A stretch of 39,553 nucleotides of DNA from a virus (lineage: Duplodnaviria > Caudoviricetes). Below the pieces are notes generated by a model. That model saw nothing but the letters and a program-made list of their open reading frames with translations. It was not told where the DNA came from and ran no database searches. Location: IMG/VR virus record IMGVR_UViG_3300029448_000115, positions 1-39,553 of that record; one strand, written 5' to 3'. Shown here piece after piece: positions 1-39,553 of this stretch; the stretch's first letter is position 1, and each line of letters opens with the position of its first letter. The position numbers were made by a program, and so were the translations under genes.

Positions 1-76
1 GCATTATAGTGATACTACTGGAAAGATAAAAGTGGGAGTGCATACGCTTGTAAATGCTGTTGCAACTAAATTATAA
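1..76 (+). CDS. 3' end of hypothetical protein (homolog of 36304-36588), truncated by window edge
   Basis: Translates HYSDTTGKIKVGVHTLVNAVATKL*, matching the C-terminus of ORF 36304-36588. Confidence 0.8.
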   Translation, partial: HYSDTTGKIKVGVHTLVNAVATKL

Positions 77-480
77 TGTTTATTGCTGTTGATCCTAAAA
101 ATTATATTTCAATATTGCATCAAAATAGGCATTCAATATTTCCTATTGATGAGCATACTATTGTAACGATATTAAACGAATATAGGCACATAGATGCTGA
201 ATGTGTGATCTTAAACAACGACAATAGATTTGATGTTGGATTTTGGTATGGCCTAGCGTTATCTTATAATTGGCAAATTGATATAATAGAGTCTGAGACT
301 TGGATGGATTATTTTGGATTATATCCTGAGGATGAAGTAGAGAGGATCAAGCATTGGATGTCTATTGCAAGGCTAAGATATCCCATGATGAAAGTAGATG
401 AAAATAATTTTGAAGTAATTTTGAGTGCATGTTACTTACATGATAAGTTTAAAGCAGAAATTAACGCGAGTTTTGCATAA
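76..480 (+). CDS. RuvC-fold protein, degenerate paralog of the resolvase at 13643-14098
   Basis: Collinear matches: FIAVDP~SIGIDVG, CVIL~CVIE, GFWYG~GQWLG, WMDYFG.P....ER..H~WMKYYG.P....ER..H, YP...V~YP...V, FEVILSACY~ADAILMAHY. Confidence 0.75.
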   Translation: MFIAVDPKNYISILHQNRHSIFPIDEHTIVTILNEYRHIDAECVILNNDNRFDVGFWYGLALSYNWQIDIIESETWMDYFGLYPEDEVERIKHWMSIARLRYPMMKVDENNFEVILSACYLHDKFKAEINASFA

Positions 481-968
481 TGAATAAATTTGATGATTTT
501 ATAGAACCATTAATTGAGCGCGAAGGCGGAGAAAAGATTATTGTAGATACTGGTGGCACTACAAAGTATGGCATTAGCGAAAAAGGTACAGGCCTTTCAG
601 CTGATGAGATAAAGAGCCTTACCAAGAGGCAAGCCATTGAGATATACCGCAAACATTATTATATACCATCAAAGTCAGATCGACTTCCTGAGCATTTACA
701 AGAAGCGTTTTTTGATAGCGTAGTAAATCAGGGCATTTCAAGAGCTACAAAGATTTTACAAACAGCTGCAAACCATAAAAATAGCAAAGGCTCAAAAATA
801 GCCGTAGATGGTAGGATTGGTAATCAAACGCTAAAAGCTGTGCAAAATTTAGAAAGTGAGCGATTTAGGGCGTTTAGGGTGCTTCATTACGCATCAATAA
901 CCTTAAAGCGACCTGATAAATACGAAAAGTATTATTATGGCTGGTTTAGGAGAGCTTTATCGCTGTAA
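480..968 (+). CDS. Endolysin, glycoside hydrolase family 108 (N-acetylmuramidase) with C-terminal PG-binding region
   Basis: EGG motif (EREGG), DxGGxTKYGIS, FD..VNQG, VDGRIG..TL, C-terminal YGWF.R. Confidence 0.9.
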   Translation: MNKFDDFIEPLIEREGGEKIIVDTGGTTKYGISEKGTGLSADEIKSLTKRQAIEIYRKHYYIPSKSDRLPEHLQEAFFDSVVNQGISRATKILQTAANHKNSKGSKIAVDGRIGNQTLKAVQNLESERFRAFRVLHYASITLKRPDKYEKYYYGWFRRALSL

Positions 969-1192
969 TGGATCAGGACTTTAAAAGCGTAGTTAAAGAA
1001 TCTTTAGCCACGCATACGACAAAATTAGAGAATATTGAGATGCAACTTAAAAGCATTGATAGTAGTTTAAAGTACAATATGACACGATTAAACAAACTTG
1101 AAACAGACCAAGCATTTATGAAGGGCATGGGAATCTTTATTGGTTCGGTGCTTAGTATTTTTATTGGATTAATAGCTTACATAGGAGGATAA
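968..1192 (+). CDS. Coiled-coil protein with C-terminal TM helix, holin/XhlA-like candidate
   Basis: Heptad N-terminus, hydrophobic C-terminus GMGIFIGSVLSIFIGLIAYIGG, coupled to the endolysin. Confidence 0.55.
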   Translation: MDQDFKSVVKESLATHTTKLENIEMQLKSIDSSLKYNMTRLNKLETDQAFMKGMGIFIGSVLSIFIGLIAYIGG

Positions 1193-1194
1193 AT

Positions 1195-1470
1195 ATGTTA
1201 GAAATTTTTGGAGACTATTTTAATTGGAGCAACTTCTTTTATTTAGTAGGAATTATATTAGCAGGATATGCAGCTGCAATTACGAGTGCAAATAGAAATA
1301 TTTTCATTCAAATTCAGGAGTTAATTGCCTGCTTGGAGCGAGTAAATAAAGATAAAAAAGTAACTTCTGCTGAGAAAAAAGAAGTAATGAAGGAAGCACT
1401 TGATATTGCAAAGGCTGTTATTCAGTCTAAATTAAGCTTGTCAGCATTAGCATTTTGGAGGAAAAAATAA
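1195..1470 (+). CDS. Small membrane protein, lysis-cassette (holin-like) candidate
   Basis: N-terminal TM FFYLVGIILAGYAAAI, basic C-terminus, GGAGG RBS, conserved in repeat copy 2. Confidence 0.5.
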   Translation: MLEIFGDYFNWSNFFYLVGIILAGYAAAITSANRNIFIQIQELIACLERVNKDKKVTSAEKKEVMKEALDIAKAVIQSKLSLSALAFWRKK

Positions 1471-2493
1471 ATGGCTGTAACCTCTAGCATAGCATATTGT
1501 TCAGAGAGGGATTTATTCGATGTTTATCCACAAATAAAATCCGCAGATACAAAAACTCGGATTTTTGGCTGGGTAGTTCATAGCAGTAATTTATATAGAG
1601 CAGATAATACTGGTTTAGTAACGCAATTATTTGCAGATGGGCAAGATTTAGGCTCTGCTCAGGCAAATAGCGGAGCAGTTACTTCTAATGGTCAATGGTT
1701 TTATGAATCATCATTAGATGCTGTTTATTATTATAATAGTTCTGCTAGCCCCAATGATATGATTATGGAAGCTGGCGAAGATTTTGCTACATTAACGCAG
1801 AGATATAGAGAGAATGCTAGTAGGCACTTAGAATCACTATTAGATAGCAGGCTTGCAGCAGAAATCGCAAAAGATCGCGAAGGTAACTATCCATATATAA
1901 TTAAAAGAACTACGGCTTTAATAGCCATTTCTCAGCTTTTAAAGGGAGATGATCCTGCTAGTGATGTGGCTGATGCCTTTATGGAAGAAGCTACTGAGTA
2001 TATTACAGGGCTTAGAACTGGAGATATTCAGCTTCCTCATCAGGTAACAGGAGACTCGCCTTATGGTTTTATTAGAGATGTAACCTATACATCAGGAAAG
2101 GTTAGGCCTGTTCAGACAAGGGGCGTATATCAAGGAACTTATGATCTAATAAAAGTGGTAATTACTACTGCTGGAGCTATTGGATCAGGTAAATATTCTA
2201 TATATGAGAAGTCAAGTTCTGATCTTAAAGCTGTTTTAATTGTAGATGGCGAGACTATAAATGGAGATTTTCAGCAATGCGCTGGAGGTCTTGAAATACG
2301 TTTTGCTGGAGGAACAGACTCATCTACAGCTGCTATTAACGATGAATGGGAAATTGAGGTTCATGGCATTGGGGAGGATGTCAGGGCTAGTAAAACTGGC
2401 AATATAAATATGTCAAGGGGTGCGTACCATTTGCCGTTTAAACGCTATAAGGGCGGGTTTTTAAGAGCAGGGCATAGGAAAATTAGGTTCTAA
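1471..2493 (+). CDS. Head-tail adaptor/connector-like virion protein with inserted beta domains
   Basis: N-terminal AYCS..DL and a helical core (AS..LES.L...YPY.IK..TA.IA) typical of Mu gp36/gp6-type adaptors; lies before the tail genes. Confidence 0.55.
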   Translation: MAVTSSIAYCSERDLFDVYPQIKSADTKTRIFGWVVHSSNLYRADNTGLVTQLFADGQDLGSAQANSGAVTSNGQWFYESSLDAVYYYNSSASPNDMIMEAGEDFATLTQRYRENASRHLESLLDSRLAAEIAKDREGNYPYIIKRTTALIAISQLLKGDDPASDVADAFMEEATEYITGLRTGDIQLPHQVTGDSPYGFIRDVTYTSGKVRPVQTRGVYQGTYDLIKVVITTAGAIGSGKYSIYEKSSSDLKAVLIVDGETINGDFQQCAGGLEIRFAGGTDSSTAAINDEWEIEVHGIGEDVRASKTGNINMSRGAYHLPFKRYKGGFLRAGHRKIRF

Positions 2494-2942
2494 TGGCCTT
2501 AGTAAAAGATACTACTTACAATAATATTTTTTATGATAATGTTTTATCAAAACTTAGGTCTATTATTACTACTGATAGAGCCTGTAGCGTATATGTTGCG
2601 CCAGCATATCAGGATCAAGGCTCTTTTTCTATTCGTTTATGGGGAACAAGTTTTGAAACAGATCAATTATATCCTGATGCATTTAGGAAGCTATATAATA
2701 CTGAGATATCTATTTATGCACTTGGAGAAGATGGAGATGAAAGATTTTATGAGCAGTTATATAGTGATTCTGAAAGGCTTTATCAGCTTTTATTTAACAA
2801 TTCTAATTTATCGAGTGGCGATTATGCGTGGAAAGATGCTCAAGTTAGCGAGGTAATTTTTGATGATTTTGTAGGAGCAGAAGAAGATGTCGATAGCTTG
2901 CATGTGGCTCGATTTGCTTTTTCTTGTCGCATCACAAGGTAA
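2493..2942 (+). CDS. Putative tail terminator / head-tail completion protein
   Basis: 149 aa, immediately before the tail tube gene, terminal beta strand (ARFAFSCRI). Confidence 0.5.
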   Translation: MALVKDTTYNNIFYDNVLSKLRSIITTDRACSVYVAPAYQDQGSFSIRLWGTSFETDQLYPDAFRKLYNTEISIYALGEDGDERFYEQLYSDSERLYQLLFNNSNLSSGDYAWKDAQVSEVIFDDFVGAEEDVDSLHVARFAFSCRITR

Positions 2943-2969
2943 ATTAAATATAAATTAAGGAAACTTATT

Positions 2970-3170
2970 ATGGCAAATAATAAAAAAGTAGAAAAACAAG
3001 TAAAATATAAGGCAAATAAAACTTTTAAGGTTTTTGTGTCTGATAAAGGCTTATTAAGTGAGTCTCAGTATAAAAATTTATTAAAAGGTGAAGCAGTTTC
3101 TTTAAAAGATGTGCCTAAAAAACAAATGAATTATCTACTAACAAATAATTTAATTATTAAGGAGCAATAA
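2970..3170 (+). CDS. Hypothetical small basic protein
   Basis: AAGGA RBS, ORF fills the gap, start is repeated at 39479. Confidence 0.65.
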   Translation: MANNKKVEKQVKYKANKTFKVFVSDKGLLSESQYKNLLKGEAVSLKDVPKKQMNYLLTNNLIIKEQ

Positions 3171-13642: not shown

Positions 13643-14098
13643 ATGATATCAATCGGAATAGATGTTGGTAAGAGCGGCGGAGTAGCAATTATCGACTCAA
13701 TCAAAAGTGAAAATGCACCTATTACAGCGGTTAAATGTCCTGAAACAGTTGCTGATATGAGCAAATTGATCACATGGCACAAATGGGATTGTCGCGATCT
13801 ATTATGCGTTATCGAAAAAGTACACAGCATGCCGAAACAAGGCGTAAAATCAATGTTTACATTTGGCAAGAACTTTGGCCAGTGGTTAGGTATCTTAGCA
13901 GCGTTTGAGATACCCTATATTGAGGTCACACCGCAGAAATGGATGAAGTACTATGGAGCTATGCCTAAAGATAAAAAGGAGCGTAAAACGCATTTAAAGC
14001 ATTTGGCACAATCTTTATATCCAAGTATTAATGTAACTTTATATACAGCTGATGCAATATTAATGGCACATTATTGTAAACAAGAGCTGAATATATGA
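13643..14098 (+). CDS. RuvC-like Holliday junction resolvase (start corrected from 13568)
   Basis: IGIDVG, CVIEKV, GVKSMFTFG, VTPQKW, ADAILMA with the acidic residues intact; GGAGG RBS at 13631. Confidence 0.88.
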   Translation: MISIGIDVGKSGGVAIIDSIKSENAPITAVKCPETVADMSKLITWHKWDCRDLLCVIEKVHSMPKQGVKSMFTFGKNFGQWLGILAAFEIPYIEVTPQKWMKYYGAMPKDKKERKTHLKHLAQSLYPSINVTLYTADAILMAHYCKQELNI

Positions 14099-16316: not shown

Positions 16317-16511
16317 TTATAAACCATGTAACGCTTCAGCGATCATCGCCTGACCAATTTCTTCAGCTATCTGATCTGCGCTTGGGCTTTTATCTAATAA
16401 GCCTTGCTCTATAGCTTCTGAAAGTGGGATCATATCAGAAGAGTTCCAAAACTCATCATCTGAAATTTTTCCCTGCTCCCATAATTGTGTCGGACTTTTT
16501 TTAATGCTCAT
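16317..16511 (-). CDS. Hypothetical acidic protein
   Basis: TAATG coupling to the upstream gene, AAAGGA RBS. Confidence 0.65.
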   Translation of the reverse strand: MSIKKSPTQLWEQGKISDDEFWNSSDMIPLSEAIEQGLLDKSPSADQIAEEIGQAMIAEALHGL

Positions 16512-16753
16512 TATAATTCCTTTCCGTTCATTTTAATGTAAGTACATCCAGCATTAGGCATTCCAAAATCATCAAGCGGCTCAAAACCATTATAATCGCC
16601 GTAGATCATGCCTTGATAATAACAGTTGTTATCGTCATCATACATTGTGAATATTTTAGAATTGCTTTTTAAGCTTTTATCACCGCAGCTGATCCCAACC
16701 TCATTACTCAAGCTGTCAATAAAAACTTTTGTTATTTTCCAGTAGTATTTCAT
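16511..16753 (-). CDS. Conserved phage hypothetical protein
   Basis: F.MYDDD...YY.G...FEPLDDFGMPNAGCT.I motif; GGAGG RBS favours the MKYYW start over 16765. Confidence 0.7.
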   Translation of the reverse strand: MKYYWKITKVFIDSLSNEVGISCGDKSLKSNSKIFTMYDDDNNCYYQGMIYGDYNGFEPLDDFGMPNAGCTYIKMNGKEL

Positions 16754-16754
16754 T

Positions 16755-17021
16755 TTAACCTCCATAAGCCTTTAAGTATAATTCAGCTAAACATTTTTTA
16801 TCATAATCTTCAACTGCTTTTTTAAGATCATCTCCATAATATTTCTTAGCTAATTTTTCAATAATTTTAATATCATCGCCAGCACTTTTGAACTTTGGCT
16901 GATAACTGATATACAAACTATGTAAATACTCAAGCAATGTCATTGGAGCAAAACCATATTCCTTGTCAATAATTATTTTATCGCCAACTATGCTTGCTGG
17001 AATACCTTGTAATCTTATCAT
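16755..17021 (-). CDS. Hypothetical protein (start corrected from 17057)
   Basis: GAGG RBS before ATG 17021, downstream of promoter 17064-17092. Confidence 0.65.
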   Translation of the reverse strand: MIRLQGIPASIVGDKIIIDKEYGFAPMTLLEYLHSLYISYQPKFKSAGDDIKIIEKLAKKYYGDDLKKAVEDYDKKCLAELYLKAYGG

Positions 17022-17063
17022 TTTTTCCTCACTTTTTTTATTAATAACCATAATCACATAACA

Positions 17064-17092
17064 AGTATAACAGTTATAACAACACTAAACAA
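17064..17092 (-). promoter_or_regulatory. sigma70-type promoter TTGTTT-N17-TATACT
   Basis: 17049-17093 is 38/45 identical to 18409-18453. Confidence 0.75.
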
Positions 17093-17100
17093 GAAAAACT

Positions 17101-17304
17101 TTATTTATTTTTAAAATATTTCATATCAAGTATTTGAACCACTCTAGGATCGCGCCGATCTTTTAAATATTTATTTAAAACAGCCTGTAGATCGCTAAAA
17201 AATTCTTTTAAGGTGTTACCTTTAGCATTAGTGAAATCAAAGCCGTGTTCAGTCTCATATTTGATCTCAGCATGGTATCTGAAATCATGGCCAACGCTAT
17301 CCAT
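17101..17304 (-). CDS. Hypothetical protein
   Basis: Overlaps the upstream gene; stops at the edge of the promoter cassette. Confidence 0.55.
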   Translation of the reverse strand: MDSVGHDFRYHAEIKYETEHGFDFTNAKGNTLKEFFSDLQAVLNKYLKDRRDPRVVQILDMKYFKNK

Positions 17305-17614
17305 TAGCCTGCTCCGCAGCTCTGATCAGAAAATTTAATCTTCTTTTGCTGATAATTTCACATCCAGCCTGACCGCTTTCAGAAAGCTCGTACTCAATCA
17401 AGCATTCAAGATTATCAGCCAGCGATCTAAAATTAGCATCCCTCAAAGCAGCTACGGCGGCCTCGGCAATGCAGATTCCGCTCCACTTAAAAAACTTGGA
17501 CATCATCAAACCAAATGCTTGCCTAGCAGTAGGGTTAGCATTTGGCATAAAGCAATTAGATTTGACCTTATTTAATAAATCTCCAACTTCGTTTTTTATT
17601 GTATTTTCAAGCAT
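17297..17614 (-). CDS. Hypothetical protein (start corrected from 17674)
   Basis: GGAGG RBS before ATG 17614, overlapping the stop of the upstream gene. Confidence 0.65.
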   Translation of the reverse strand: MLENTIKNEVGDLLNKVKSNCFMPNANPTARQAFGLMMSKFFKWSGICIAEAAVAALRDANFRSLADNLECLIEYELSESGQAGCEIISKRRLNFLIRAAEQANG

Positions 17615-18035
17615 AGATTTTACCTCCCCACGGCGAATTTCCTGTTTCAATAAAATTATTATCAGTTTCAACAAAATTATTTTCTTGATCTGCGATCAGA
17701 TCATAAGGTTTGTCATAGCTGCCGATCTTAACAGAAATATAATAGCCGACATGAAAATAGTCAGTCATAATATCTGATTTATCAAAATTCTCAGCGTTCA
17801 TTGCTGGAATAATTTCAGATAAAAAAGCCAGCGCAGCAGGATTATCAGCAAAATGATCTTTGTACCAATATTCATTTATTGAGTCAGTCTTAAAATCTAT
17901 TGATCCTGATTTTAGAGTCAATGTTAATTGACTATGATCCTGAACCGATAAAGTTCCTTTCATATTATGCTTATCCAAGACTTGCTTAATCTTGGGAGCT
18001 AATCTTTTCTTTTTTTCTTGGTTTATAAAAGCCAT
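17607..18035 (-). CDS. Conserved phage protein with N.D.SDIMTDYF motif (LPD29-like)
   Basis: NFDKSDIMTDYFHVGYY and LSV..HS.L.LT.KSG motifs, AGGAG RBS; family name recalled from motif only. Confidence 0.55.
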   Translation of the reverse strand: MAFINQEKKKRLAPKIKQVLDKHNMKGTLSVQDHSQLTLTLKSGSIDFKTDSINEYWYKDHFADNPAALAFLSEIIPAMNAENFDKSDIMTDYFHVGYYISVKIGSYDKPYDLIADQENNFVETDNNFIETGNSPWGGKIYA

Positions 18036-18045
18036 ATTATTTCTC

Positions 18046-18384
18046 CTATCCTATTTCTAAATTTGTAATTTTATATCCAGTAGATTTTATTATTCTCTGC
18101 ATATCTTCTGAATAATCAGAAATGTTTTCTGATGAGCTAACTTCTTTTTGATATTCGCTAGCAATACTACCCCATGTTTGCGGATCAGAACTTTCAAAAT
18201 CAGTATCAAAAAAAGCGACACCTTTTTTAACAAGCGATGCCATTGCGCCCCTTGCAGCTTTCATGCCGCCAAAATCCTCAAACGCATAATGACTAATATA
18301 GCCACCAAGCCCAAGCCCATCAGAAGCATGATCAGACCACGCTATCTGATAAACAATTTTATATTCAAGTTGTGTTATTTTCAT
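18046..18384 (-). CDS. Hypothetical protein, possible winged helix (start corrected from 18417)
   Basis: MKITQLE...ARGAMASLVKKGV resembles a wHTH; AAAGGA RBS. Confidence 0.55.
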   Translation of the reverse strand: MKITQLEYKIVYQIAWSDHASDGLGLGGYISHYAFEDFGGMKAARGAMASLVKKGVAFFDTDFESSDPQTWGSIASEYQKEVSSSENISDYSEDMQRIIKSTGYKITNLEIG

Positions 18385-18423
18385 TTTTTTAATTCCTTTA
18401 TTTTTTATCATAATCACATAACA

Positions 18424-18452
18424 ATTCTAACAATTATAACAATACCATGCAA
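18424..18452 (-). promoter_or_regulatory. sigma70-type promoter TTGCAT-N17-TAGAAT
   Basis: Minus strand TTGCAT GGTATTGTTATAATTGT TAGAAT TGTTAT with an A/T-rich UP region. Confidence 0.8.
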
Positions 18453-18472
18453 GTAAATAATTAATTTTTTTT

Positions 18473-18495
18473 TGGGGAGGAAAAAATCCTCCCCA
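18473..18495. terminator. 9-bp GC-rich hairpin (terminator or RNA stability element)
   Basis: TGGGGAGGA-AAAAA-TCCTCCCCA just after the SprT-like stop; no U-tract on the minus strand. Confidence 0.5.
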
Positions 18496-18507
18496 TTTAC
18501 AGAGCGT

Positions 18508-19149
18508 TTAAACACTGGCAGCCGCTTTTATTATTGTTTTAATAGTAGCACCTACAACATCATGAGTCATTTCAGAGCCACATTGACCGCAGCTCGGCGC
18601 GCCTTTCAAGTACATTGTTTTGCTCATCCGAACAAAATAAGGCTCAAGGACACATTCAGGACATTCGATTTTTAAATTCCGAGTGCCTTGCTTTTTTCTG
18701 TTTATCTCATAATCCAGCTTTTTATGTGGGTACTTACCGATCTTAGACTCAATGCCTTTTATAATCTCTTTTAAGGCATCAGATTCGCCTGTGGCGGTCA
18801 TTTTACCAGTTAATCCACATGCAGTAGCCATTTTCTTAAAAGCGCCTTTGTGGCCACTTTTACAATCGTCAATGGCGTGGATCAATTCATGAACTAAAAC
18901 GCCAGCAACTTTTGTTACCTGAGATTTATCCAAACATGGATTAATAAAAATCTCATTTACTTTAGCCGCGCTGCACCTCCTAGCAAAACATTGTCCAATA
19001 GTTTTATTCTTGGACTTAGCTCCGCCTGAAGATGGAAAGCCGACACTTACTTTTACTTTTTTAAGATCAAGGTTGATTCCATTAGGCTTAAAAACCTGAG
19101 TTTTTAATTCCTTTGTCATCTCCCATAACCATGATTCTCTATTTTTCAC
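18508..19149 (-). CDS. SprT-like zinc metalloprotease with C-terminal zinc ribbon
   Basis: VLVHELIH...GHKGAF (HExxH plus third His), CPEC and CGQC; AGGAGG RBS. Confidence 0.85.
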   Translation of the reverse strand: MKNRESWLWEMTKELKTQVFKPNGINLDLKKVKVSVGFPSSGGAKSKNKTIGQCFARRCSAAKVNEIFINPCLDKSQVTKVAGVLVHELIHAIDDCKSGHKGAFKKMATACGLTGKMTATGESDALKEIIKGIESKIGKYPHKKLDYEINRKKQGTRNLKIECPECVLEPYFVRMSKTMYLKGAPSCGQCGSEMTHDVVGATIKTIIKAAASV

Positions 19150-19358
19150 AAGACCTCCTTTGTTAAAGTTGATTCAATAACATCTAATATTTGACCATGA
19201 TCAATATATCCAACAGCGGAAAATTTATTTCCAGCATCATCTGTACCATGTACATGAGCTGTTCCGACTGCTTGATTAATTAAATACATACTATGTGTAT
19301 CGCAATCAATGCCATCTCCGATTTCACTCCAAGAAATTTTATTTACAAAATCAATCAT
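19146..19358 (-). CDS. Hypothetical protein
   Basis: Translationally coupled on both sides, AAGGAG RBS. Confidence 0.65.
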   Translation of the reverse strand: MIDFVNKISWSEIGDGIDCDTHSMYLINQAVGTAHVHGTDDAGNKFSAVGYIDHGQILDVIESTLTKEVL

Positions 19359-19651
19359 TATAACTCCTTAAATGGTTTAGGTTGAAAATACATATCTCGT
19401 TCAATTTTTAATCCGCTGCTGTGAGTGATCTCAGCTAATTCATCCAAGCTAAAATATCCCCACTCGCCAGCAAACCCATCAACAAACCCAAAAAATTTAT
19501 TTGTCTCAGGATCAAACTCGACTCCATACCATGTCCAACTGTTCCACGGACAAAAATATTTTACCTGAACAACTTTATCAGCAGCAGAAATATTTTCAGT
19601 ACCATATATAGCTGGTAATTTTTTTTCAATTTCTCTAGTTATAAGTTTCAT
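19358..19651 (-). CDS. DUF2958-family protein
   Basis: VKYFCP...WTWY..EFD.....FFG.V.G...EWGYFSL.EL...IERD.YF signature. Confidence 0.85.
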   Translation of the reverse strand: MKLITREIEKKLPAIYGTENISAADKVVQVKYFCPWNSWTWYGVEFDPETNKFFGFVDGFAGEWGYFSLDELAEITHSSGLKIERDMYFQPKPFKEL

Positions 19652-19672
19652 ATAAATGCATTACCTCCTTTT

Positions 19673-19867
19673 TTACCAAAACATACTTAATAAATCTTTT
19701 TCAACCTGCGGATCACAACTAACAGAATCACTATCTAACTTATGATCAGGAAAGTTTTTAGTAACCCACTTAGTAGCCTTTTTAATTGCTGATTTTTGAC
19801 CACGCGCCCAAACTGAGTTCGATCCCCAGTCATCGCCATTGTGGAAAGTAAATGTCCAATTTTTCAT
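19673..19867 (-). CDS. Hypothetical protein
   Basis: GGAGG RBS, in the leftward operon. Confidence 0.7.
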   Translation of the reverse strand: MKNWTFTFHNGDDWGSNSVWARGQKSAIKKATKWVTKNFPDHKLDSDSVSCDPQVEKDLLSMFW

Positions 19868-22900: not shown

Positions 22901-23184
22901 AAGCTGATGCGCGGTCAGTTAAAATGGATAGAGTGGATGATAACTATATTGTCCGTATCAACATTAGGGCTCTTATTTACCTGCTTACTCTTGTCGCTTC
23001 GGCTTCTTATTACTGGCTTAATACTCAAAGCAAAATTGAGCAACTTCACGTGGGCGTAACAGAACTACATGAAAGGGTTTTAAAGCTTGAAACAAAACAT
23101 GAAGCTGAGATAGCAAAAGTAATGAAATGGTATGAGGATATTTCAATTAATCCGCTTACAGGTTTTAAGAAAAAACGCAAATAA
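22897..23184 (+). CDS. Single-TM plus coiled-coil protein
   Basis: ALIYLLTLVASASYYWL followed by heptads and a basic tail. Confidence 0.6.
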   Translation: MKADARSVKMDRVDDNYIVRINIRALIYLLTLVASASYYWLNTQSKIEQLHVGVTELHERVLKLETKHEAEIAKVMKWYEDISINPLTGFKKKRK

Positions 23185-24221
23185 TGGCAAGGCATGACAT
23201 TGATGGAAACGCAATAACTTGCCCTAAGTGCGGCAGCAAAAATATAATAAAAGATGGTTTCCAATACTGGAAAACTTTTAAACGCCAAAGATGGAATTGT
23301 AAAGATTGTTTTAAAAAAACAATTGCCCCAAAAGAAATAGCCCACAATCCTTTTAGTGTACCTGAAGCGCCTATTGAAGAAATGTCAATTGAAGATATTA
23401 TAGCGTATAGAAATAAAAAATATAAAATAAAAATAAAAAACGCAAATTATAAAAGATTAATACCTATAAAAGTAAATGTAAAAGGTGTAATAGGTATTGC
23501 TCATTTTGGTGATCCTCATGTTGATGATGATGGAACAAATTTATCTGAAATTTATAGTATTGTAAACAAAATAAATAAAACCGAAGGAATGTTTGCTGGA
23601 AATCTTGGAGATGTTCAGAATAATTGGATAGGTAGATTGACAGCTTTATATGGTCAGCAATCAACGACAGCCAAAGAATCGTGGCTTATAACTGAGCATT
23701 TTTTAAAAAGCGTTCCGTGGATTTATTTGGTGGCTGGGAATCATGATGTTTGGTCAGGAGATGGCGATCCTATTGAATTTATAATGAGAGAGCAGCCAGC
23801 TTTATATCAAAAACATGGCGCAAGAATGAATTTATGCTTTCCAAATGGAAGGCAAATTAGAATACATTGCCGACACCAATTTAAGGGCAATAGTATGTGG
23901 AATACTGCTCACTCTATCAGTAAAGCTGTTCAGATGGGTTGGCGAGATCATATTTTAACCGCTGGGCATACTCATGTTTCAGGTTATCAGGTTTTAAAAG
24001 ATCCGTCATCAGGTTTGATAAGTCATGCGCTGCAAGTAGCCTCATTTAAAAATATGGATGAATACGCTGAGAAGCTTGGCTTAGATGATAAAAATATTTT
24101 TAATTGCCCTGTCACAATTATTGATCCAAGTTACGGAGATGATGACAGAAGGCAAATAACTACTATATTCGATCCGTACGAAGGCGCAGATTTTCTTACA
24201 TGGAAACGCAAAAAGAAGTAA
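23184..24221 (+). CDS. Calcineurin-like metallophosphoesterase with N-terminal zinc ribbon
   Basis: GDPH, LGD, GNHD, H and GHTH motifs in order; CPKC...CKDC N-terminus. Confidence 0.85.
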   Translation: MARHDIDGNAITCPKCGSKNIIKDGFQYWKTFKRQRWNCKDCFKKTIAPKEIAHNPFSVPEAPIEEMSIEDIIAYRNKKYKIKIKNANYKRLIPIKVNVKGVIGIAHFGDPHVDDDGTNLSEIYSIVNKINKTEGMFAGNLGDVQNNWIGRLTALYGQQSTTAKESWLITEHFLKSVPWIYLVAGNHDVWSGDGDPIEFIMREQPALYQKHGARMNLCFPNGRQIRIHCRHQFKGNSMWNTAHSISKAVQMGWRDHILTAGHTHVSGYQVLKDPSSGLISHALQVASFKNMDEYAEKLGLDDKNIFNCPVTIIDPSYGDDDRRQITTIFDPYEGADFLTWKRKKK

Positions 24222-24955: not shown

Positions 24956-25223
24956 GCCAATTTCTGATAATAGCAGTTTAAACATATCACTACCTATGAT
25001 TATTCAAGCTGTAACATTTATCGTAATGCTTGTTTATGGATATTCACAGTTAAATGCTCGTATTAGTTTTCTTGAGTATCAAGTGGCAATGAATGAAGAG
25101 CATATTATAGATTTAGAAGAGGATGCTGAAAATAATCAAGATGCTGAAATACCAGCTGATATAAAACAAAATCAAAGAATTGAATATCTTGAAAGAGAAG
25201 TTGAGAGGCTTAGAGATCAATGA
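24942..25223 (+). CDS. Single-TM plus coiled-coil protein
   Basis: MIIQAVTFIVMLVYGY followed by an acidic coiled coil. Confidence 0.6.
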   Translation: MENTKPISDNSSLNISLPMIIQAVTFIVMLVYGYSQLNARISFLEYQVAMNEEHIIDLEEDAENNQDAEIPADIKQNQRIEYLEREVERLRDQ

Positions 25224-25489
25224 TAAAATATAGAGGCGTTAAATTCTCAGGATATAATAAGCCAAAAAGAACTAAAGGCCATAAAAAAAAATCGCATGCG
25301 GTGCTTGCAAAAGTTGGCAAAAAAGTAAAATTAATTAGGTTTGGTCAGCAGGGAGTTAGCGGTGCTGGTAAGAATCCCAAAACCAAAGCTGGTAAAGCTA
25401 GGCGCAGATCATTTAAGGCTAGGCATGCTAAGAATATTCGCAAAGGAAAGATGTCTGCTGCTTACTGGGCTAACAAAGTAAAATGGTAA
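25220..25489 (+). CDS. Conserved basic viral protein (IRFGQ / RRRSFKARH / SAAYW family)
   Basis: KKSHAVLAK, LIRFGQQG, SFKARH, SAAYWA.K.KW pattern familiar from aquatic viruses. Confidence 0.7.
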   Translation: MIKYRGVKFSGYNKPKRTKGHKKKSHAVLAKVGKKVKLIRFGQQGVSGAGKNPKTKAGKARRRSFKARHAKNIRKGKMSAAYWANKVKW

Positions 25490-26014
25490 TTGATGAAAGC
25501 AAAAAGAAACTATTCATATAAAAAAGCATCTCGATTAATTAATGGAATTATTTCAGAAACATTAACCGATATGGCTCGGTATCAAAATCAATCTATACAG
25601 CAAGGTATTGACACAAGTACAGATATTAACGGCAAAAAATTTAAAAAATTAAGTGAGGCCTCAACGCTGCCGATCAGGCAAAGGCGAATGCAAGGATTTA
25701 CTCCGCTTCAAACAATGAAAATTGGCAATATTGGAGCATCAGGAGCTGATCTTCAATCATCAAAATCATTAAGAGCGACAAAAATAATTAAAGCAAAACA
25801 AAGCAGTTTAATATCAAAAGTAATTATGGTTAATAAGCATGGTGTTTACCATAATCAAAAAGGGGGATTTACAACTGGTGGTATGATAAAAGGTGCAAAG
25901 GTAGAACAGCGTGAATGGTTTGGAATGACTAAAGATATGAAAGCAGGAGGCAGTCAGTATAAAAAATTTGTGAAAATGACAATGACCAAAATTAAAAATT
26001 CCTTAAAAAAATAA
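25490..26014 (+). CDS. Virion morphogenesis (Mu gpG / tail-completion S-like) protein
   Basis: G..FKKLS..T...R, GVYHN..G, V.QREWFG motifs; precedes MuF. Confidence 0.65.
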   Translation: MMKAKRNYSYKKASRLINGIISETLTDMARYQNQSIQQGIDTSTDINGKKFKKLSEASTLPIRQRRMQGFTPLQTMKIGNIGASGADLQSSKSLRATKIIKAKQSSLISKVIMVNKHGVYHNQKGGFTTGGMIKGAKVEQREWFGMTKDMKAGGSQYKKFVKMTMTKIKNSLKK

Positions 26015-27447
26015 TGGCTACATCTGAAGAATTAATTGCGTTATTTGGAGATGATTTTAACAATGTTTTAAAAGGTTTAAACGCTTTACCTATAGAGGTT
26101 CGTGAACTTTTAGATGGAACTATGAATAAAATGATTAGTGATGCTGATATTTTTTCACAAAGAATAAATAAAGCTGTAACAACGCAAAGAGCATCAGGTA
26201 TTAGTTCAGCGGTTACTACAGGAGTTCTAGCAACTGATATGGTTTCTGAAGGTGCAATTTTTGGAGAAATTCGAAACGCTATAAAAGAATCATTAGTAGA
26301 GGGAATAAATCAAACTGGCAGAGCTGCACAATATCAAGCTTATGATGCTGATGATAAAACGCTGTTTACATGGGTAACAGTTGCTGGCCATAAAATTTGT
26401 CAAGAATGCCAATGGAGATCAGGCCACCAAGCCACATTAAAAGAATGGGAATCTGCTGGTATGCCCGGAACTGGGTGGAGTGTGTGCGGTGGGCATTGTT
26501 ATTGTATTCTTGATCCTAGCGGTAAAATATCGCCAGTTGTGCAGGCTGAACAAGAACGCGCTAAATTAGTTCAACAAGGAAAACCACTTGAATCAAACTA
26601 TATAAAAGCGTATAAAGTCAAATCAGATCATAAATCTGCTTACAATAGATTTATGAAATTAGATTCATCAACAGCAATGGAAATGATGAAGCCTAAATTT
26701 AAAAAAGGGAAATTAGTTAGAGGGCAATTATCAAGAGCGCAAATACTTAGAGAAACTAATAGCGCAAGAAAGAAATTAAGTGTTAGTAAGCAATCTATGA
26801 ATAAACATCTTGTAAATGGTACATTAACAAAATCAAGAAAAAAGCTACATGATGACATAATAAATGAAATTGTAAATGGTGGGAAAGTTGCTAAAAAAGG
26901 CAAGCAGGAATTATTAACAACAGGAGGTTATCCCGGATCAGGTAAATCTACAATGTTAAATCAAGCTTTTCCGGGCTGGAAAGAAAAATTTGTGCATTTA
27001 GATGCAGATAGAGTAAAAGAATTATTGGCTAAAGCTGATGGCGTTGATTTAAAATGGCGTGCAGCGTTGTATCATGTAGAGTCAAAGCATGTAGTTAAAA
27101 TGATAACTAAGAGAGCAATCCAAGAGAATAGGCATATTTTATATGATGCAACAATGAAAAGTACGGATAAATTTATAAAGGCTATCGAGGGATATAAAAA
27201 TGCAGGCTATAAAGTAACAGGCGCATTTGCAGATTTACCAATAGAACAAGCAATGGAAAGAGCTATAGCAAGATTTTTTGGATCATCAGGAAGGTTTGTT
27301 GATCCTCTTTATATTTCAACGCATGGAAATCAAAACATTGCAACATTCAATGCTTTAATTGATAATGCATTGCTTGATATATGGACACAATACAGCACTA
27401 ACGTCCCAATTAATACACCAGCTTTATTTATAGATGGCTATCCTTAA
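26014..27447 (+). CDS. MuF-like minor head protein fused to a C-terminal Zeta-toxin-like P-loop kinase
   Basis: WVTV..HKICQEC...G...W...GMPG...CGGHCYC (MuF). Then R..LH..I, GGYPGSGKST Walker A, HLDADRVK, ILYDATM, ERAIAR...GRFV (Zeta/PezT). Confidence 0.85.
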   Translation: MATSEELIALFGDDFNNVLKGLNALPIEVRELLDGTMNKMISDADIFSQRINKAVTTQRASGISSAVTTGVLATDMVSEGAIFGEIRNAIKESLVEGINQTGRAAQYQAYDADDKTLFTWVTVAGHKICQECQWRSGHQATLKEWESAGMPGTGWSVCGGHCYCILDPSGKISPVVQAEQERAKLVQQGKPLESNYIKAYKVKSDHKSAYNRFMKLDSSTAMEMMKPKFKKGKLVRGQLSRAQILRETNSARKKLSVSKQSMNKHLVNGTLTKSRKKLHDDIINEIVNGGKVAKKGKQELLTTGGYPGSGKSTMLNQAFPGWKEKFVHLDADRVKELLAKADGVDLKWRAALYHVESKHVVKMITKRAIQENRHILYDATMKSTDKFIKAIEGYKNAGYKVTGAFADLPIEQAMERAIARFFGSSGRFVDPLYISTHGNQNIATFNALIDNALLDIWTQYSTNVPINTPALFIDGYP

Positions 27448-27695
27448 TCCTCAGCTTTAATAGGCTCAAAAATTACCCCATTATCTCCGGGAAACGGATT
27501 GCGATGATCTATTACGCTAGTGTGTATGTCGTTTGGAATACCCTCAGGAAATGCTTTGCAAGTTATATTATCATCATTTAAGTGCTTGCATAGGTCACAA
27601 TCAAAGCCTGTGCCTAAATTCCTAAGCTGTATAAGCAGATCATCAATTAACTGCTCTTCGATATCCCAAGTCTCGACAATATCTTTTACAGACAT
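27444..27695 (-). CDS. Cys-rich protein (CxxCxH, CKAFPxGIP, DH..P..GDNG), candidate immunity
   Basis: Stop codon overlaps the MuF-Zeta stop; AAGGAG RBS. Confidence 0.7.
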   Translation of the reverse strand: MSVKDIVETWDIEEQLIDDLLIQLRNLGTGFDCDLCKHLNDDNITCKAFPEGIPNDIHTSVIDHRNPFPGDNGVIFEPIKAED

Positions 27696-36058: not shown

Positions 36059-36304
36059 ATGAGTCAAGATAAAAAAGTGCAAGAAGAAGAACAAAAGCGT
36101 TCATATACTTGGAGAAGCGAAAAAGGGGAAGAGATCACAAAATCTATTGATGATCTTAAACCTGATGAGGTTTCTGCATTAGAGCGTTTAAACAATTTAA
36201 ATATGAATATTGTAAGGTTGAATGCAGAATTGAGTGATCTTTCTATTCTTGCTGAGCATTATAGTAAAATTGCAGAAAAGGCTTTTTTAGAAGAAGAGGA
36301 ATAA
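36059..36304 (+). CDS. Hypothetical coiled-coil protein
   Basis: GGAGG RBS. Confidence 0.65.
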   Translation: MSQDKKVQEEEQKRSYTWRSEKGEEITKSIDDLKPDEVSALERLNNLNMNIVRLNAELSDLSILAEHYSKIAEKAFLEEEE

Positions 36305-36588
36305 TGCTAGTTAGGAGATCATCAAAAGGCAAAAAGATTTATATCTTTAAGCCAAGAACAAAAGAAAATATCACTTACAAGTTTAGTGATAGTGAAGTTG
36401 TTTCTTTTGATGCTCAGAACAAAGCTTTTGTTGTTACAAGTGAGGGAGCGGTAATTAAAAGAACTAATTCTTGGATTACCGCTCAAACTACTTATGACAG
36501 TGAATGTAAAAAGCATTATAGCGACACTACTGGAAAAATTAAAGTGGGAGTGCATACGCTTGTAAATGGCGTTGCAACTAAATTATAA
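36304..36588 (+). CDS. Hypothetical protein
   Basis: TAATG coupling on both sides; C-terminus conserved in copy 1. Confidence 0.7.
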   Translation: MLVRRSSKGKKIYIFKPRTKENITYKFSDSEVVSFDAQNKAFVVTSEGAVIKRTNSWITAQTTYDSECKKHYSDTTGKIKVGVHTLVNGVATKL

Positions 36589-36992
36589 TGTTTATTGCTG
36601 TTGATCCTAAGAATTACATTTCAATACTACATCAAAATAGGCATTCTATATTTCCAATAGAAGAAGGAACTATTTTAGCTATCTTAAATGATTATAAATA
36701 TGTAGATGCTGAATGCGTTATATTAGATAATACAAATAGATTTGATGTCGGGTTTTGGTATGGTCTTGCTTTAGCCTATGGGTGGCAGATTGATATTATT
36801 AATTCTAAAACTTGGATGGATTATTTTGGGCTATACCCTGAAAACAAAAAAGAAAGGATTAAACACTGGATGAGTATTGCAAGACTTAGATACCCTATGA
36901 TGAAAGTAGATGAAACTAATTTTGAAGTGATTTTAAGCGCATGCTATTTGCATGATAAATTTAAAGCAGAATTAAACGCGAGTTTCGCATGA
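36588..36992 (+). CDS. Degenerate RuvC-fold protein, allele 2
   Basis: Same length and motifs as 76-480. Confidence 0.75.
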   Translation: MFIAVDPKNYISILHQNRHSIFPIEEGTILAILNDYKYVDAECVILDNTNRFDVGFWYGLALAYGWQIDIINSKTWMDYFGLYPENKKERIKHWMSIARLRYPMMKVDETNFEVILSACYLHDKFKAELNASFA

Positions 36993-37477
36993 ATAAATTT
37001 GATGATTTTATAGAACCATTAATTGAGCGCGAAGGCGGAGAAAAGATCATTGTCGATACTGGCGGTACGACAAAGTATGGGATCAGTGAAAAAGGTACAG
37101 GCCTTTCAGCTGATGAGATCAAAAGCCTTACAAAGAGGCAAGCTATTGAAATCTACCGAAAACATTACTATGTGCCATCGAAGTCTGATCGGCTGCCTGA
37201 GCATTTACAGGAAGCGTTTTTTGATAGCGTAGTAAATCAGGGCATTTCAAGAGCTACAAAAATTTTACAAGCAGCAGCAAACCATAAAAATAGCAAAGGC
37301 TCTAAAATAGCTGTAGATGGGCGCATAGGTAATCAGACGTTAAAAGCTGTACAAAATTTAGAAAGTGAGCGTTTTAGGGCATTTAGAGTGCTTCATTACG
37401 CACAAATAACATTAAAGCGCCCTGATAAATACGAAAAGTACTATTATGGTTGGTTTAGAAGGGCTTTATCGCTGTAA
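36989..37477 (+). CDS. GH108 endolysin, allele 2
   Basis: Three amino-acid differences from 480-968 (I/V, T/A, S/Q). Confidence 0.9.
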   Translation: MNKFDDFIEPLIEREGGEKIIVDTGGTTKYGISEKGTGLSADEIKSLTKRQAIEIYRKHYYVPSKSDRLPEHLQEAFFDSVVNQGISRATKILQAAANHKNSKGSKIAVDGRIGNQTLKAVQNLESERFRAFRVLHYAQITLKRPDKYEKYYYGWFRRALSL

Positions 37478-37701
37478 TGGATCAGGAATTTAAAAGCGTA
37501 GTGAAAGAAGTATTGGCAACACATACAACAAAATTAGAAAATATTGAAATGCAACTTAAAAGCATTGATAGTAGTTTAAAGTATAATATGGAGCGTTTAA
37601 ACAGAGTAGAAACAGATCAAGCTTTTATGAAAGGCATGGGCGTTTTTATTGGCTCTATACTTAGTATTTTTATTGGATTAGTAGCATACATAGGAGCTTA
37701 A
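37477..37701 (+). CDS. Holin/XhlA-like candidate, allele 2
   Basis: Homolog of 968-1192. Confidence 0.55.
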   Translation: MDQEFKSVVKEVLATHTTKLENIEMQLKSIDSSLKYNMERLNRVETDQAFMKGMGVFIGSILSIFIGLVAYIGA

Positions 37702-37703
37702 AT

Positions 37704-37979
37704 ATGGTTGAGTATTTTGCAGATTATTTTAGTTGGAGTAACTTTTTTTATTTAGTTGGCATAATATTAGCTGGTTATGCAGCAGCAATTACCAGTGCAA
37801 ACAGAAATATTTTTATACAGATTCAGGAGCTTATTGCTTGTTTGGAGCGTGTCAATAAAGATAAAAAGGTCACAGCAGCAGAGAAAAAAGAAGTCATGAA
37901 AGAGGCGCTTGATATCGCAAAAGCTGTGATCCAGTCAAAGTTTAGTTTTAAAGCTTTATCTCTTTGGAGGAAAAAATAA
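37704..37979 (+). CDS. Small membrane protein, allele 2
   Basis: Homolog of 1195-1470. Confidence 0.5.
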   Translation: MVEYFADYFSWSNFFYLVGIILAGYAAAITSANRNIFIQIQELIACLERVNKDKKVTAAEKKEVMKEALDIAKAVIQSKFSFKALSLWRKK

Positions 37980-39002
37980 ATGGCGATTACCTCTAGCATA
38001 GCATATTGTTCAGAGAGGGATTTATTCGATGTTTATCCGCAGGTAAAATCCGCAGATACAAAGACTAGGATTTTTGGTTGGGTAGTACATAGCTCAAATT
38101 TATATAGGGCAGATAACACTGGTTTAATAACACAATTATTTGCGAATGGGCAAGATTTAAGCTCTGCTCAGGCAAATAGTGGAGCAGTCACTTCTAATGG
38201 TCAATGGTTTTATGAATCATCGTTAGATGCTGTCTATTATTATAATAGCGCTGCTAGCCCAAATGATATTATTATGGAGGCTGGCGAGGATTTCGCTACA
38301 TTAACGCAGAGATACAGAGAAAATGCCAGTCGGCATTTAGAATCGTTATTAGATAGCAGACTTGCAGCAGAAATCGCAAAAGATCGCGAAGGCAGCTATC
38401 CGTACATAATTAAAAGGATCACAGCTTTAATCGCTATTTCGCAGCTTTTAAAGGGAGATGATCCAGCAAGTGAGGTTGCTGATGCCTTTATGGAGGAGGC
38501 TACAGAATATATTACAGGTTTAAGAACTGGAGATATTAAGCTTCCTCATCAAGTCACTGGAGACAGTGCTTATGGTTTTATTCGAGATGTTGTTTATACA
38601 TCAGGTAAAGTTAGGCCTGTTCAGACTCGCGGTGTATATCAAGGTACTTACGATCTATTAAAAGTTGTAATTACGACAGCTGGAGCTATAGGCTCAGGAA
38701 AATATTCGGTGTATGAAAAATCAAGTTCTGATTTAAAAGCTGCTTTAGTTGTAGATGGTGAAACAATAAACGGAGACTTTCAACAATGTGCTGGAGGTCT
38801 TGAGATACGTTTTGCAGGCGGCACGGATTCATCCGCAGCAGCTATAAATGATGAGTGGGAAATAGAAGTGCATGGAATTGGCGAGGATATTAGATCAGGT
38901 AAAACTGGTAATATTATTATGTCAAGAGGCGCTTCTCATGTTCCGTATAATCGTTTTAAAGGCGGTTTTTTAAAAACAGGCAGTAGAAAGATCAGGTTTT
39001 AA
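37980..39002 (+). CDS. Head-tail adaptor-like protein, allele 2
   Basis: Homolog of 1471-2493. Confidence 0.55.
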   Translation: MAITSSIAYCSERDLFDVYPQVKSADTKTRIFGWVVHSSNLYRADNTGLITQLFANGQDLSSAQANSGAVTSNGQWFYESSLDAVYYYNSAASPNDIIMEAGEDFATLTQRYRENASRHLESLLDSRLAAEIAKDREGSYPYIIKRITALIAISQLLKGDDPASEVADAFMEEATEYITGLRTGDIKLPHQVTGDSAYGFIRDVVYTSGKVRPVQTRGVYQGTYDLLKVVITTAGAIGSGKYSVYEKSSSDLKAALVVDGETINGDFQQCAGGLEIRFAGGTDSSAAAINDEWEIEVHGIGEDIRSGKTGNIIMSRGASHVPYNRFKGGFLKTGSRKIRF

Positions 39003-39451
39003 TGGCCTTAGTAAAAGATACAAGCTATAACAATATATTTTATGATAATGTTTTATCAAAACTTAGGTCTATTATTACCACTGATAGAGCTTGCAGCGTA
39101 TATATTGCGCCAGCATATCAAGATCAAGGCTCTTTCTCTGTTCGTTTATGGGGATCAAGTTTTGCAACAGATCAATTATACCCTAATACATTTAGAAAAT
39201 TATATAATGTCGAAATATCTATTTATACACTTGGTGAAGATAGAGATGAAAGATTTTATGAGCAGCTGTATAGCGATTCTGAAAGACTTTATCAGCTTTT
39301 ATTTAACAATTCTAACTTATCAAGCGGCGATTATGCGTGGAAGGATGCTCAAGTTAGTGAAGTAATTTTTGATGATTTTATAGGCGCAGAAGAAGATGTT
39401 GATAATTTACATGTTGCTCGATTTTCTTTTTCTTGTCGCATCACAAGGTAA
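39002..39451 (+). CDS. Putative tail terminator, allele 2
   Basis: Homolog of 2493-2942. Confidence 0.5.
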   Translation: MALVKDTSYNNIFYDNVLSKLRSIITTDRACSVYIAPAYQDQGSFSVRLWGSSFATDQLYPNTFRKLYNVEISIYTLGEDRDERFYEQLYSDSERLYQLLFNNSNLSSGDYAWKDAQVSEVIFDDFIGAEEDVDNLHVARFSFSCRITR

Positions 39452-39478
39452 ATTACCTATAAATTAAGGAAACTTATT

Positions 39479-39553
39479 ATGGCAAATAATAAAAAAGTAG
39501 AAAAACAAGTAAAATATAAGGCAAATAAAACTTTTAAGGTTTTTGTGTCTGAT
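39479..39553 (+). CDS. 5' part of small basic protein (homolog of 2970-3170), truncated by window edge
   Basis: Identical to 2970-3044. Confidence 0.65.
   Translation, partial: MANNKKVEKQVKYKANKTFKVFVSD

What the first reader, a model, noticed from the sequence alone, without database searches (positions are those of the whole stretch)
76..480. Second, apparently catalytically degenerate RuvC paralog coupled to the endolysin
Seen: this 134-aa protein (allele 2 at 36588-36992) aligns end to end with the phage's own resolvase (13643-14098). It keeps the first Asp (AVDP), but the CVIE glutamate is Leu, the SMPKQGVKSMFTF segment is largely deleted, and ADAIL has become FEVIL. Both alleles are full length with many synonymous changes, so it is not simply decaying. 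It sits in the late operon overlapping the endolysin start, far from the replication genes. Established: RuvC needs an acidic cluster and works as a dimer. Inference: a repurposed pseudo-nuclease, for example a late dominant-negative or heterodimer partner that switches off or retargets the resolvase, a junction-binding packaging factor, or a decoy against host defence. I know of no described system like this.
Basis: partly seen in the sequence, partly recalled or inferred. Interest (0 to 1): 0.75.

Follow-up and report, generated by a model that had tools for sequence, protein, structure and literature searches.

The report
Dead junction-cutter copy kept by phages
A group of uncultured phages keeps, always right before its cell-lysis enzyme gene, a conserved second copy of its DNA-junction-cutting enzyme that lacks the conserved cutting residues and the positive DNA-gripping surface, so it likely no longer acts on DNA and likely works as a self-paired protein with a new, still unidentified partner late in infection.

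Summary
Real. The 134-aa gene is a MOC1/RuvC-fold homolog of the phage's own resolvase (profile match 99%, fold Z 14.7). It is under purifying selection (allele dN/dS 0.05) and precedes the endolysin in all 51 loci long enough to tell. It forms one family of 56 distinct proteins in one phage clade. No catalytic triad is conserved: the first Asp is acidic in 22 of 56, the central Glu position in 0 of 56. The base-recognition loop is deleted and the phosphate-binding lysines are mostly acidic, so junction binding is unlikely. The dimer-helix glycines are invariant. A heterodimer with the resolvase models well (0.61 vs 0.00), probably by likeness to MOC1 dimers. But the interface flanks vary, in one clade as a self-complementary Arg/Asp pair, while the resolvase side stays constant, which favours a homodimer. 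Best reading: an exapted pseudo-resolvase binding a protein partner late in infection (45%); resolvase off-switch 22%. Dead resolvases are known in mitochondria (Mrs1, TEFM); my searches found no phage case.

The parts
76..480 (+). Pseudo-resolvase, allele 1 (134 aa; MOC1/RuvC fold, no conserved catalytic triad, DNA face acidic; net charge -10)
36588..36992 (+). Pseudo-resolvase, allele 2 (134 aa; the modelled copy; net charge -3)
13643..14098 (+). Intact MOC1-like Holliday junction resolvase (D7, E58, D137) in the Sak / HTH_36 replication block
   Evidence: (PHROG 1770, E 3e-26)
480..968 (+). GH108 + PG_binding_3 endolysin, start overlaps the pseudo-resolvase stop (allele 1)
36989..37477 (+). 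Endolysin, allele 2 (4-nt overlap)
968..1192 (+). 74-aa holin/haemolysin-like membrane protein after the endolysin
   Evidence: phrog_1193, E 2e-6
36304..36588 (+). 94-aa unknown gene upstream, overlapping the start; widespread without the pseudo-resolvase (74 of 79 loci)
1..3044 (.). Terminal overlap with 36513-39553, 86% identical: source of the two alleles

Best explanation
The gene encodes a MOC1/RuvC-fold protein that lacks a conserved catalytic triad, the base-recognition loop and the basic DNA-binding face, and it likely acts late in infection as a predicted homodimer that likely binds a protein partner rather than DNA. Shown: fold, residue losses, purifying selection, fixed place between the tail-fibre cassette and the endolysin, invariant dimer-helix glycines. 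Inferred, step by step: (1) A resolvase gene of this family was copied or imported into the accessory slot after the 94-aa gene in the clade's ancestor. (2) A dead copy that still held junctions or paired with the active enzyme would block resolution, so the DNA face turned acidic and the helix flanks drifted to fit themselves. (3) The freed cleft, now lined by conserved Tyr/Trp/Phe83, Pro84, Asp/Glu85, Asp86, Asn111, Tyr/Phe112 and Glu113, binds a basic protein of the assembly or lysis stage. The co-translated endolysin (net +8) is my first candidate, on adjacency and charge alone. Late timing is inferred from gene position.
For: Fold: AlphaFold pLDDT 89; Foldseek top 11 ranks are MOC1 (best E 7e-6); VIA Z 14.7, rmsd 2.3, 118 aligned to NtMOC1. 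Catalysis: resolvases keep D7 116/118, E58 118/118, D137 117/118. The family has acids at 6+46+113 in 0 of 56 and at 6+47+113 in 13 of 56. DNA face: MOC1 phosphate contacts K218 and K225 (PMC7078210) map via to K102 and K109, which are D/E in 40 of 56 and 54 of 56. The RK pair R114-K115 (118/118) keeps Lys in 0 of 56. Charge at nine face positions: median +8 vs -1. Dimer: G55, W57, G59 in 56 of 56; 55, 59 and 63 match the MOC1 interface residues G196, G200, A204. Self-pairing: the model puts resolvase 86 against residue 56, so in a homodimer 62 would face 56'. Arg56 goes with Asp/Glu62 in 20 of 20 cases and the reverse, while Phe/Leu and Ile/Ile pairs occur elsewhere. The cognate resolvases keep Q/E80, L82, A/T86 across that split. 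Flank entropies at 56/58/62 are 1.9/2.7/2.6 bits (family median 1.5) versus 0.4/0.4/0.7 in 46 close resolvases (median 0.8). Selection. The resolvase does without it in 37 of 37 other records.
Against: No partner was identified or modelled, and the homodimer itself was not modelled. The Arg56/Asp62 pairing is one clade, so one evolutionary event; it ranked only 67th of 8515 pairs by MI-APC. The heterodimer model passes. The gene occurs only in phages with the resolvase (7 of 8 near-complete records; five sibling phages lack both), which shared ancestry or a functional link would both give. Glu113 is 54 of 56 and could be a relic metal ligand. Endolysins at about 45% identity and the upstream gene occur without it, so neither needs it in general. 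Nine of 56 members keep Lys/Arg at position 78.
Confidence: 0.45

Rival explanations
1. Late off-switch: the dead copy pairs with the active resolvase through the conserved helix; the mixed dimer has one active site and half a DNA face, so junction cutting is damped as packaging and lysis begin.
For: Complex model score 0.61, best of 3 controls 0.00 (the mark was reached by 116 of 157 solved complexes and 2 of 215 mismatched pairs; runs agree in at least 92% of contacts; partner pLDDT at least 86), using the MOC1-type helix-helix interface. Both genes in the window and in G002, G003, G006, G007, G008, G009. Sibling phages lack both (0 of 5). MOC1 needs its dimer to cut (PMC7078210 passages).
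Against: MOC1 dimers are solved, so the pass may show likeness only. The pseudo-resolvase's interface flanks are among its more variable sites while the resolvase's are constant. In G006/G007 Asp62 would face Glu80 (inferred by symmetry). 37 records with 39-55% identical resolvases, 16 of them at least 90% complete, have no such copy. Phages such as T4 need their resolvase during packaging (recalled).
Confidence: 0.22
2. Decoy or counter-defence factor: it soaks up a host protein that recognises or blocks the phage resolvase, or an acidic-surface-binding host DNA enzyme.
For: A host system acting on a phage RuvC is described: AbiD1 was proposed to deplete it, and overexpressing the RuvC gene raised resistance (PMC13064643 passages). 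The family evolves faster than the resolvase (41-44% vs 61-68% identity across the deep split). The slot after the 94-aa gene carries other accessory genes in sibling phages.
Against: A late-operon position fits poorly with early counter-defence. The surface a sensor would read (loop, basic face) is what has changed. Fixed synteny and length across the clade are unlike patchy counter-defence genes. No PADLOC match; host unknown.
Confidence: 0.12
3. Still a nuclease with a rebuilt or reduced site (Asp6, Asp47, Glu113), acting on another substrate.
For: hhalign places residue 47 on E58; allele 2 and 12 others have acids at 6, 47 and 113; Glu113 in 54 of 56.
Against: 43 of 56 lack that trio; allele 1 has Asn47 where allele 2 has Asp; position 6 is Val or Ser in whole clades; strand ends favour Leu46 on E58; DNA-contact lysines lost.
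Confidence: 0.1
4. Non-catalytic junction or RNA binder (Mrs1/TEFM-like), for example a packaging or late-transcription factor.
For: Precedents keep the dimer and nucleic-acid role (PMC2813881, PMC9950373 passages); Lys/Arg99 and Arg101 are conserved; two members have net charge +8.
Against: Loop deleted in 56 of 56; face charge -1 vs +8; median net charge -3 vs +6.
Confidence: 0.08
5. Neutral relic held in place by overlapping translation signals.
For: Stop overlaps the endolysin start in all 60 loci with an ORF hit.
Against: dN/dS 0.05 between alleles, median 0.20 over 170 pairs; 57 intact ORFs of 134-143 aa, the other 5 loci cut by contig ends; many invariant residues, some new (W66, W94, C119).
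Confidence: 0.03

Closest known systems
MOC1 chloroplast resolvase and its phage relatives (PHROG 1770; PDB 6KVN, 6KVO, 6IS9)
   Same: RNase H fold, best structural match; G-x-W-x-G dimer helix; Glu at the last carboxylate position.
   Different: MOC1 needs D116, D118, E175, E258, the BR loop and K218/K225 contacts (PMC7078210 passages). This family keeps only the last acid, deletes the loop and makes the lysine positions acidic.
Yeast Mrs1 (RuvC-family splicing cofactor)
   Same: Resolvase-derived dimer that no longer cuts DNA, narrow phylogenetic range (PMC2813881 passages).
   Different: Mrs1 binds RNA tetraloop-receptor motifs, presumably with the old cleft; here the cleft has lost its basic residues. 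Mitochondrial, not phage.
TEFM (mitochondrial transcription elongation factor)
   Same: Dimeric pseudonuclease core of the same fold (VIA Z 8.5, rmsd 3.5, 124 aligned; PMC9950373 passages).
   Different: TEFM has extra domains, clamps DNA and binds RNA polymerase; this protein is a bare 134-aa core.
Lactococcal phage RuvC (bIL66/bIL67) and AbiD1
   Same: Phage-encoded RuvC-fold protein (4KTW, Z 12.1, rmsd 2.6, 121 aligned); a host system acts on it (PMC13064643 passages).
   Different: That RuvC is active, single-copy as far as I recall, and middle-expressed; no dead paralog is described.
TTV1 nucleocapsid protein TP1 from Cas4 (PMC4625639, search listing only)
   Same: Viral exaptation of a nuclease fold.
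   Different: Different fold, archaeal virus, structural DNA-binding role.

Membership tests
RuvC/MOC1 Holliday junction resolvases | RNase H fold with RuvC helix arrangement | tested here: met
RuvC/MOC1 Holliday junction resolvases | Conserved catalytic carboxylates on strand 1, strand 4 and the last helix | tested here: not met
   acidic at 6: 22 of 56; at 46: 0 of 56 (at 47: 39 of 56); at 113: 54 of 56; all three: 0 or 13 of 56 by register
RuvC/MOC1 Holliday junction resolvases | Base-recognition loop before the dimer helix | tested here: not met
   12 residues shorter in 56 of 56
RuvC/MOC1 Holliday junction resolvases | Basic DNA-binding cleft (MOC1 K218, K225 equivalents) | tested here: not met
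   D/E in 40 of 56 and 54 of 56; face charge -1 vs +8
RuvC/MOC1 Holliday junction resolvases | Small-residue dimer helix (G196, G200, A204) | tested here: met
   G55, G59 56 of 56; position 63 A/S in 44 of 56; G192 equivalent not kept
RuvC/MOC1 Holliday junction resolvases | Four-way junction cleavage | not testable with these tools
   needs assay
Mrs1/TEFM-type pseudo-resolvases | Resolvase fold without catalytic site, dimer features kept | tested here: met
Mrs1/TEFM-type pseudo-resolvases | Retained nucleic-acid engagement | tested here: inconclusive
   sequence argues against; no binding data
Dominant-negative heterodimer partner | Co-occurs with the active paralog | tested here: met
   7 of 8 near-complete records; the exception G005 looks mosaic
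Dominant-negative heterodimer partner | Forms a mixed dimer with the active paralog | tested here: inconclusive
   model passes, 0.61 vs 0.00, but like solved MOC1 dimers; flank variation points to self-pairing
Dominant-negative heterodimer partner | Inhibits the active enzyme | not testable with these tools
   needs mixing assay

The most novel reading that the evidence does not exclude
A phage times its own DNA processing with a dead twin: a late-made, non-DNA-binding copy of its resolvase swaps into the enzyme's dimer and shuts junction cutting off as the lysis genes come on.
Probability: 0.22. Interest if true: 0.78.

Novelty: new variant of a known kind. Interest (0 to 1): 0.52.

Why it matters
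Dead RuvC-family proteins are known from mitochondria, where they keep a nucleic-acid role. This is an unannotated phage family (no Pfam, PHROG, NCBIfam or PADLOC match) that sits beside its active homolog in one small genome and appears to have dropped both cutting and DNA binding while keeping the dimer helix. The pair is a clean, small test case for how a dead copy of a homodimeric enzyme either escapes interference with its parent or is kept as its regulator. Its partner would define a new late or lysis function in abundant uncultured phages. The limit: one clade, host unknown, mechanism inferred.

Tried and rejected
Family libraries gave no real hit for either allele (Pfam, PHROGs, NCBIfam, PADLOC). 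No match in the GenBank phage set or in GTDB genomes (0 of 46 pattern stretches), so no host or prophage. The profile search of 1.84 billion representatives gave 13 hits: 2 full members, 2 fragments, 1 repetitive artefact (P0139), and 8 resolvases or resolvase fragments; no intermediate form. The last homolog search gave 26 members only; longer or fused forms were not searched. ESM Atlas: unnamed clusters at 0.90-0.91 and RuvC/Pox_A22 leads at 0.88; nothing for the 94-aa gene. The 94-aa gene as obligate partner: rejected, 74 of 79 loci lack the pseudo-resolvase. Promoter/terminator scan at chance level (46 vs 44.8 expected). A joint tree shows the family monophyletic on a very long stem (2.5), with the N-terminal half misaligned, so duplication in place versus import is unresolved. 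MI-APC covariation is too weak to use (Neff 17). RNA runs: five small shares (0.05-0.09), four laid, only short contigs, no evidence of expression or timing. G005 lacks the resolvase but appears to join two phages, so it is not counted as a true loss. Five long metagenome contigs could not be searched whole, so co-occurrence rests on 8 records. Earlier scan findings: three look-ups, nothing. Ten literature searches (open-access library only) showed no phage dead resolvase paralog; listings were read by title and abstract start.

Full report
Setting. The window is a 35% GC tailed-phage contig: terminase, capsid, tape measure, Rad52-family annealing protein and GH108 endolysin. Its ends overlap over 3,044 bases at 86% identity. 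I infer two strains joined in one contig and a unit genome near 36.5 kb; both allele types recur in other contigs (L001, L053, L055 identical in protein to allele 2; L057 next to allele 1). The resolvase at 13643-14098 matches PHROG 1770 (E 3e-26), and its nine best PDB hits are MOC1.

Homology and fold. BLASTP aligns the last 76 residues of each allele to the resolvase. Profiles align 129 columns at 99% probability. All 7 PDB sequences reached by the family profile are MOC1, though weakly (E 0.09-0.16). The AlphaFold model (pLDDT 89) matches MOC1 first in Foldseek and VIA (Z 14.7, rmsd 2.3, 118 aligned), then lactococcal phage RuvC, bacterial RuvC and poxvirus resolvase. The fold claim stands.

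Family and context. Homolog searches gave 13, then 26 proteins. Of 62 loci examined (11 viral, 51 metagenomic, some the same contig twice), 57 hold a full ORF of 134-143 aa and 5 are cut by contig ends. The endolysin follows directly in 51 of the 57; the other 6 have under 480 bases left. The 94-aa gene was detected upstream in 47 of 57 (5 lacked room, 5 not detected). All 11 viral loci with an endolysin at least 79% identical carry the gene; three loci with a 45% endolysin do not. Pooling gave 47, then 56 distinct proteins. Allele dN/dS is 0.05 (dS 1.8, near saturation), within the 0.03-0.09 of five neighbours; the median of 170 family pairs is 0.20, the maximum 0.67. It is conserved, not decaying, and restricted to one clade.

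Co-occurrence. Among records at least 90% complete that carry the gene, the window and G002, G003, G006, G007, G008, G009 also carry an intact resolvase; G005 does not. G005 has no terminase or portal of this phage and switches to another phage's structural block, with a PD-(D/E)XK nuclease near the switch, so I treat it as uninformative. Fragments G001, G004 and G010 cannot tell. Five sibling phages sharing the upstream cassette lack both genes. I searched 40 of 80 resolvase-bearing records, chosen for length: only the three already known carry the paralog; the nine partial hits in the other 37 fall on the resolvase itself. So the paralog goes with the resolvase, but the resolvase does not need it.

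Active site. NtMOC1 needs D116, D118, E175 and E258 (PMC7078210, passages). The phage resolvases keep D7, E58, D137 in 116, 118 and 117 of 118. In the paralog family position 6 is acidic in 22 of 56. Strand 4 ends at E58 in the resolvase model and at Leu46 in the paralog model, and position 46 is L/I/V/M in 56 of 56. hhalign instead puts residue 47 on E58; it is D/E in 39 of 56 and Asn in allele 1. Even then only 13 of 56 have three acids. Glu113 lies on D137 and is kept in 54 of 56, next to a new Tyr/Phe112 where resolvases have Ala/Ser. No triad is under constraint; I put loss of junction cutting at about 0.88.

DNA face. Using the alignment, MOC1's BR-loop residues Y180 and D183 fall in the 12-residue deletion, fixed in 56 of 56. 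Its phosphate contacts K218 and K225 map to K102 and K109, which are D/E in 40 and 54 of 56 (9 keep K/R at the first). The invariant resolvase K115 is never Lys. Nine face positions sum to +8 in resolvases and -1 here; whole-protein medians are +6 and -3. Junction binding is unlikely.

Dimer. G55, W57 and G59 are invariant; 55, 59 and 63 match MOC1's interface residues G196, G200 and A204, two of which disrupt the dimer when mutated together (PMC7078210, passages; its supplements were not seen). A resolvase-paralog complex scored 0.61 against a best control of 0.00 (mark reached by 116 of 157 solved complexes, 2 of 215 mismatched pairs; contacts agree at least 92%, partner pLDDT at least 86). 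It uses the solved MOC1-type interface, so it shows likeness, not binding. Its contact 86-56 implies 62-56' in a homodimer. Arg56 and Asp/Glu62 occur strictly together (20 of 20 each way), Phe/Leu and Ile/Ile pairs elsewhere, while seven cognate resolvases keep Q/E80, L82, A/T86. Flank entropy is above the family median here and at or below it in close resolvases. This favours self-pairing, but the Arg/Asp case is a single clade and the homodimer was not modelled.

Mechanism. Most likely (0.45) an exapted homodimer that escaped interference with its parent and binds a basic late protein through a re-lined acidic-aromatic cleft; the endolysin (net +8) is a guess from adjacency and charge. Rivals: resolvase off-switch 0.22, decoy 0.12, rebuilt nuclease 0.10, nucleic-acid binder 0.08, relic 0.03. 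That homomeric paralogs diverge more freely once released from interference is stated in PMC9548406 (passage).

Known versus new. It is not a member of the active RuvC/MOC1 resolvases (three defining features not met). It works like the pseudo-resolvases Mrs1 (PMC2813881, passages) and TEFM (PMC9950373, passages) in keeping fold and dimer helix, and differs in losing the basic cleft and in living beside its active homolog in a phage. Ten open-access searches showed no phage case; subscription papers were not covered. Verdict: new variant of a known kind, interest 0.52.

Noticed in passing
window 26014-27447 (+) and 27444-27695 (-): Head-region protein with a C-terminal zeta-toxin/kinase domain (PF06414, E 2e-16) and a convergent 83-aa gene. 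Relatives of 354-532 aa match mainly part of it. Looks like a polymorphic MuF-type toxin with a candidate immunity gene (MuF label recalled, not from a call).
   Followed up: no
L131:4263-4772, also L132-L134, L136: Sibling phages carry a type IV pilin-like gene in the slot after the 94-aa gene (weak NCBIfam pilin hits, E 0.014-0.046).
   Followed up: partly
G005 (L005, L019, L020): 41-kb record rated complete appears to join this phage's capsid-tail-replication half to another phage's structural block; a PD-(D/E)XK nuclease and two methylases lie before the switch.
   Followed up: partly
window 16317-19867 (-): Antisense block of about a dozen small genes (SprT-like, DUF2958) separates the small and large terminase genes by 3.8 kb.
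   Followed up: no
window 23184-24221: Zinc-ribbon plus calcineurin-like phosphoesterase gene between portal and head genes, 63-99% identical in relatives and siblings, absent from the G006/G007 stretches read.
   Followed up: no
pseudo-resolvase C-terminus (window 472-477): Terminal Phe-Ala/Val is kept in 55 of 56; it may be a binding or degradation signal, or be shaped by the overlapping endolysin start.
   Followed up: no
window 25220-25489; L006:4212-5546, L007:11113-12443: Lys/Arg-rich small genes move between the head region and the lysis cassette and expand to several in G006/G007.
   Followed up: no
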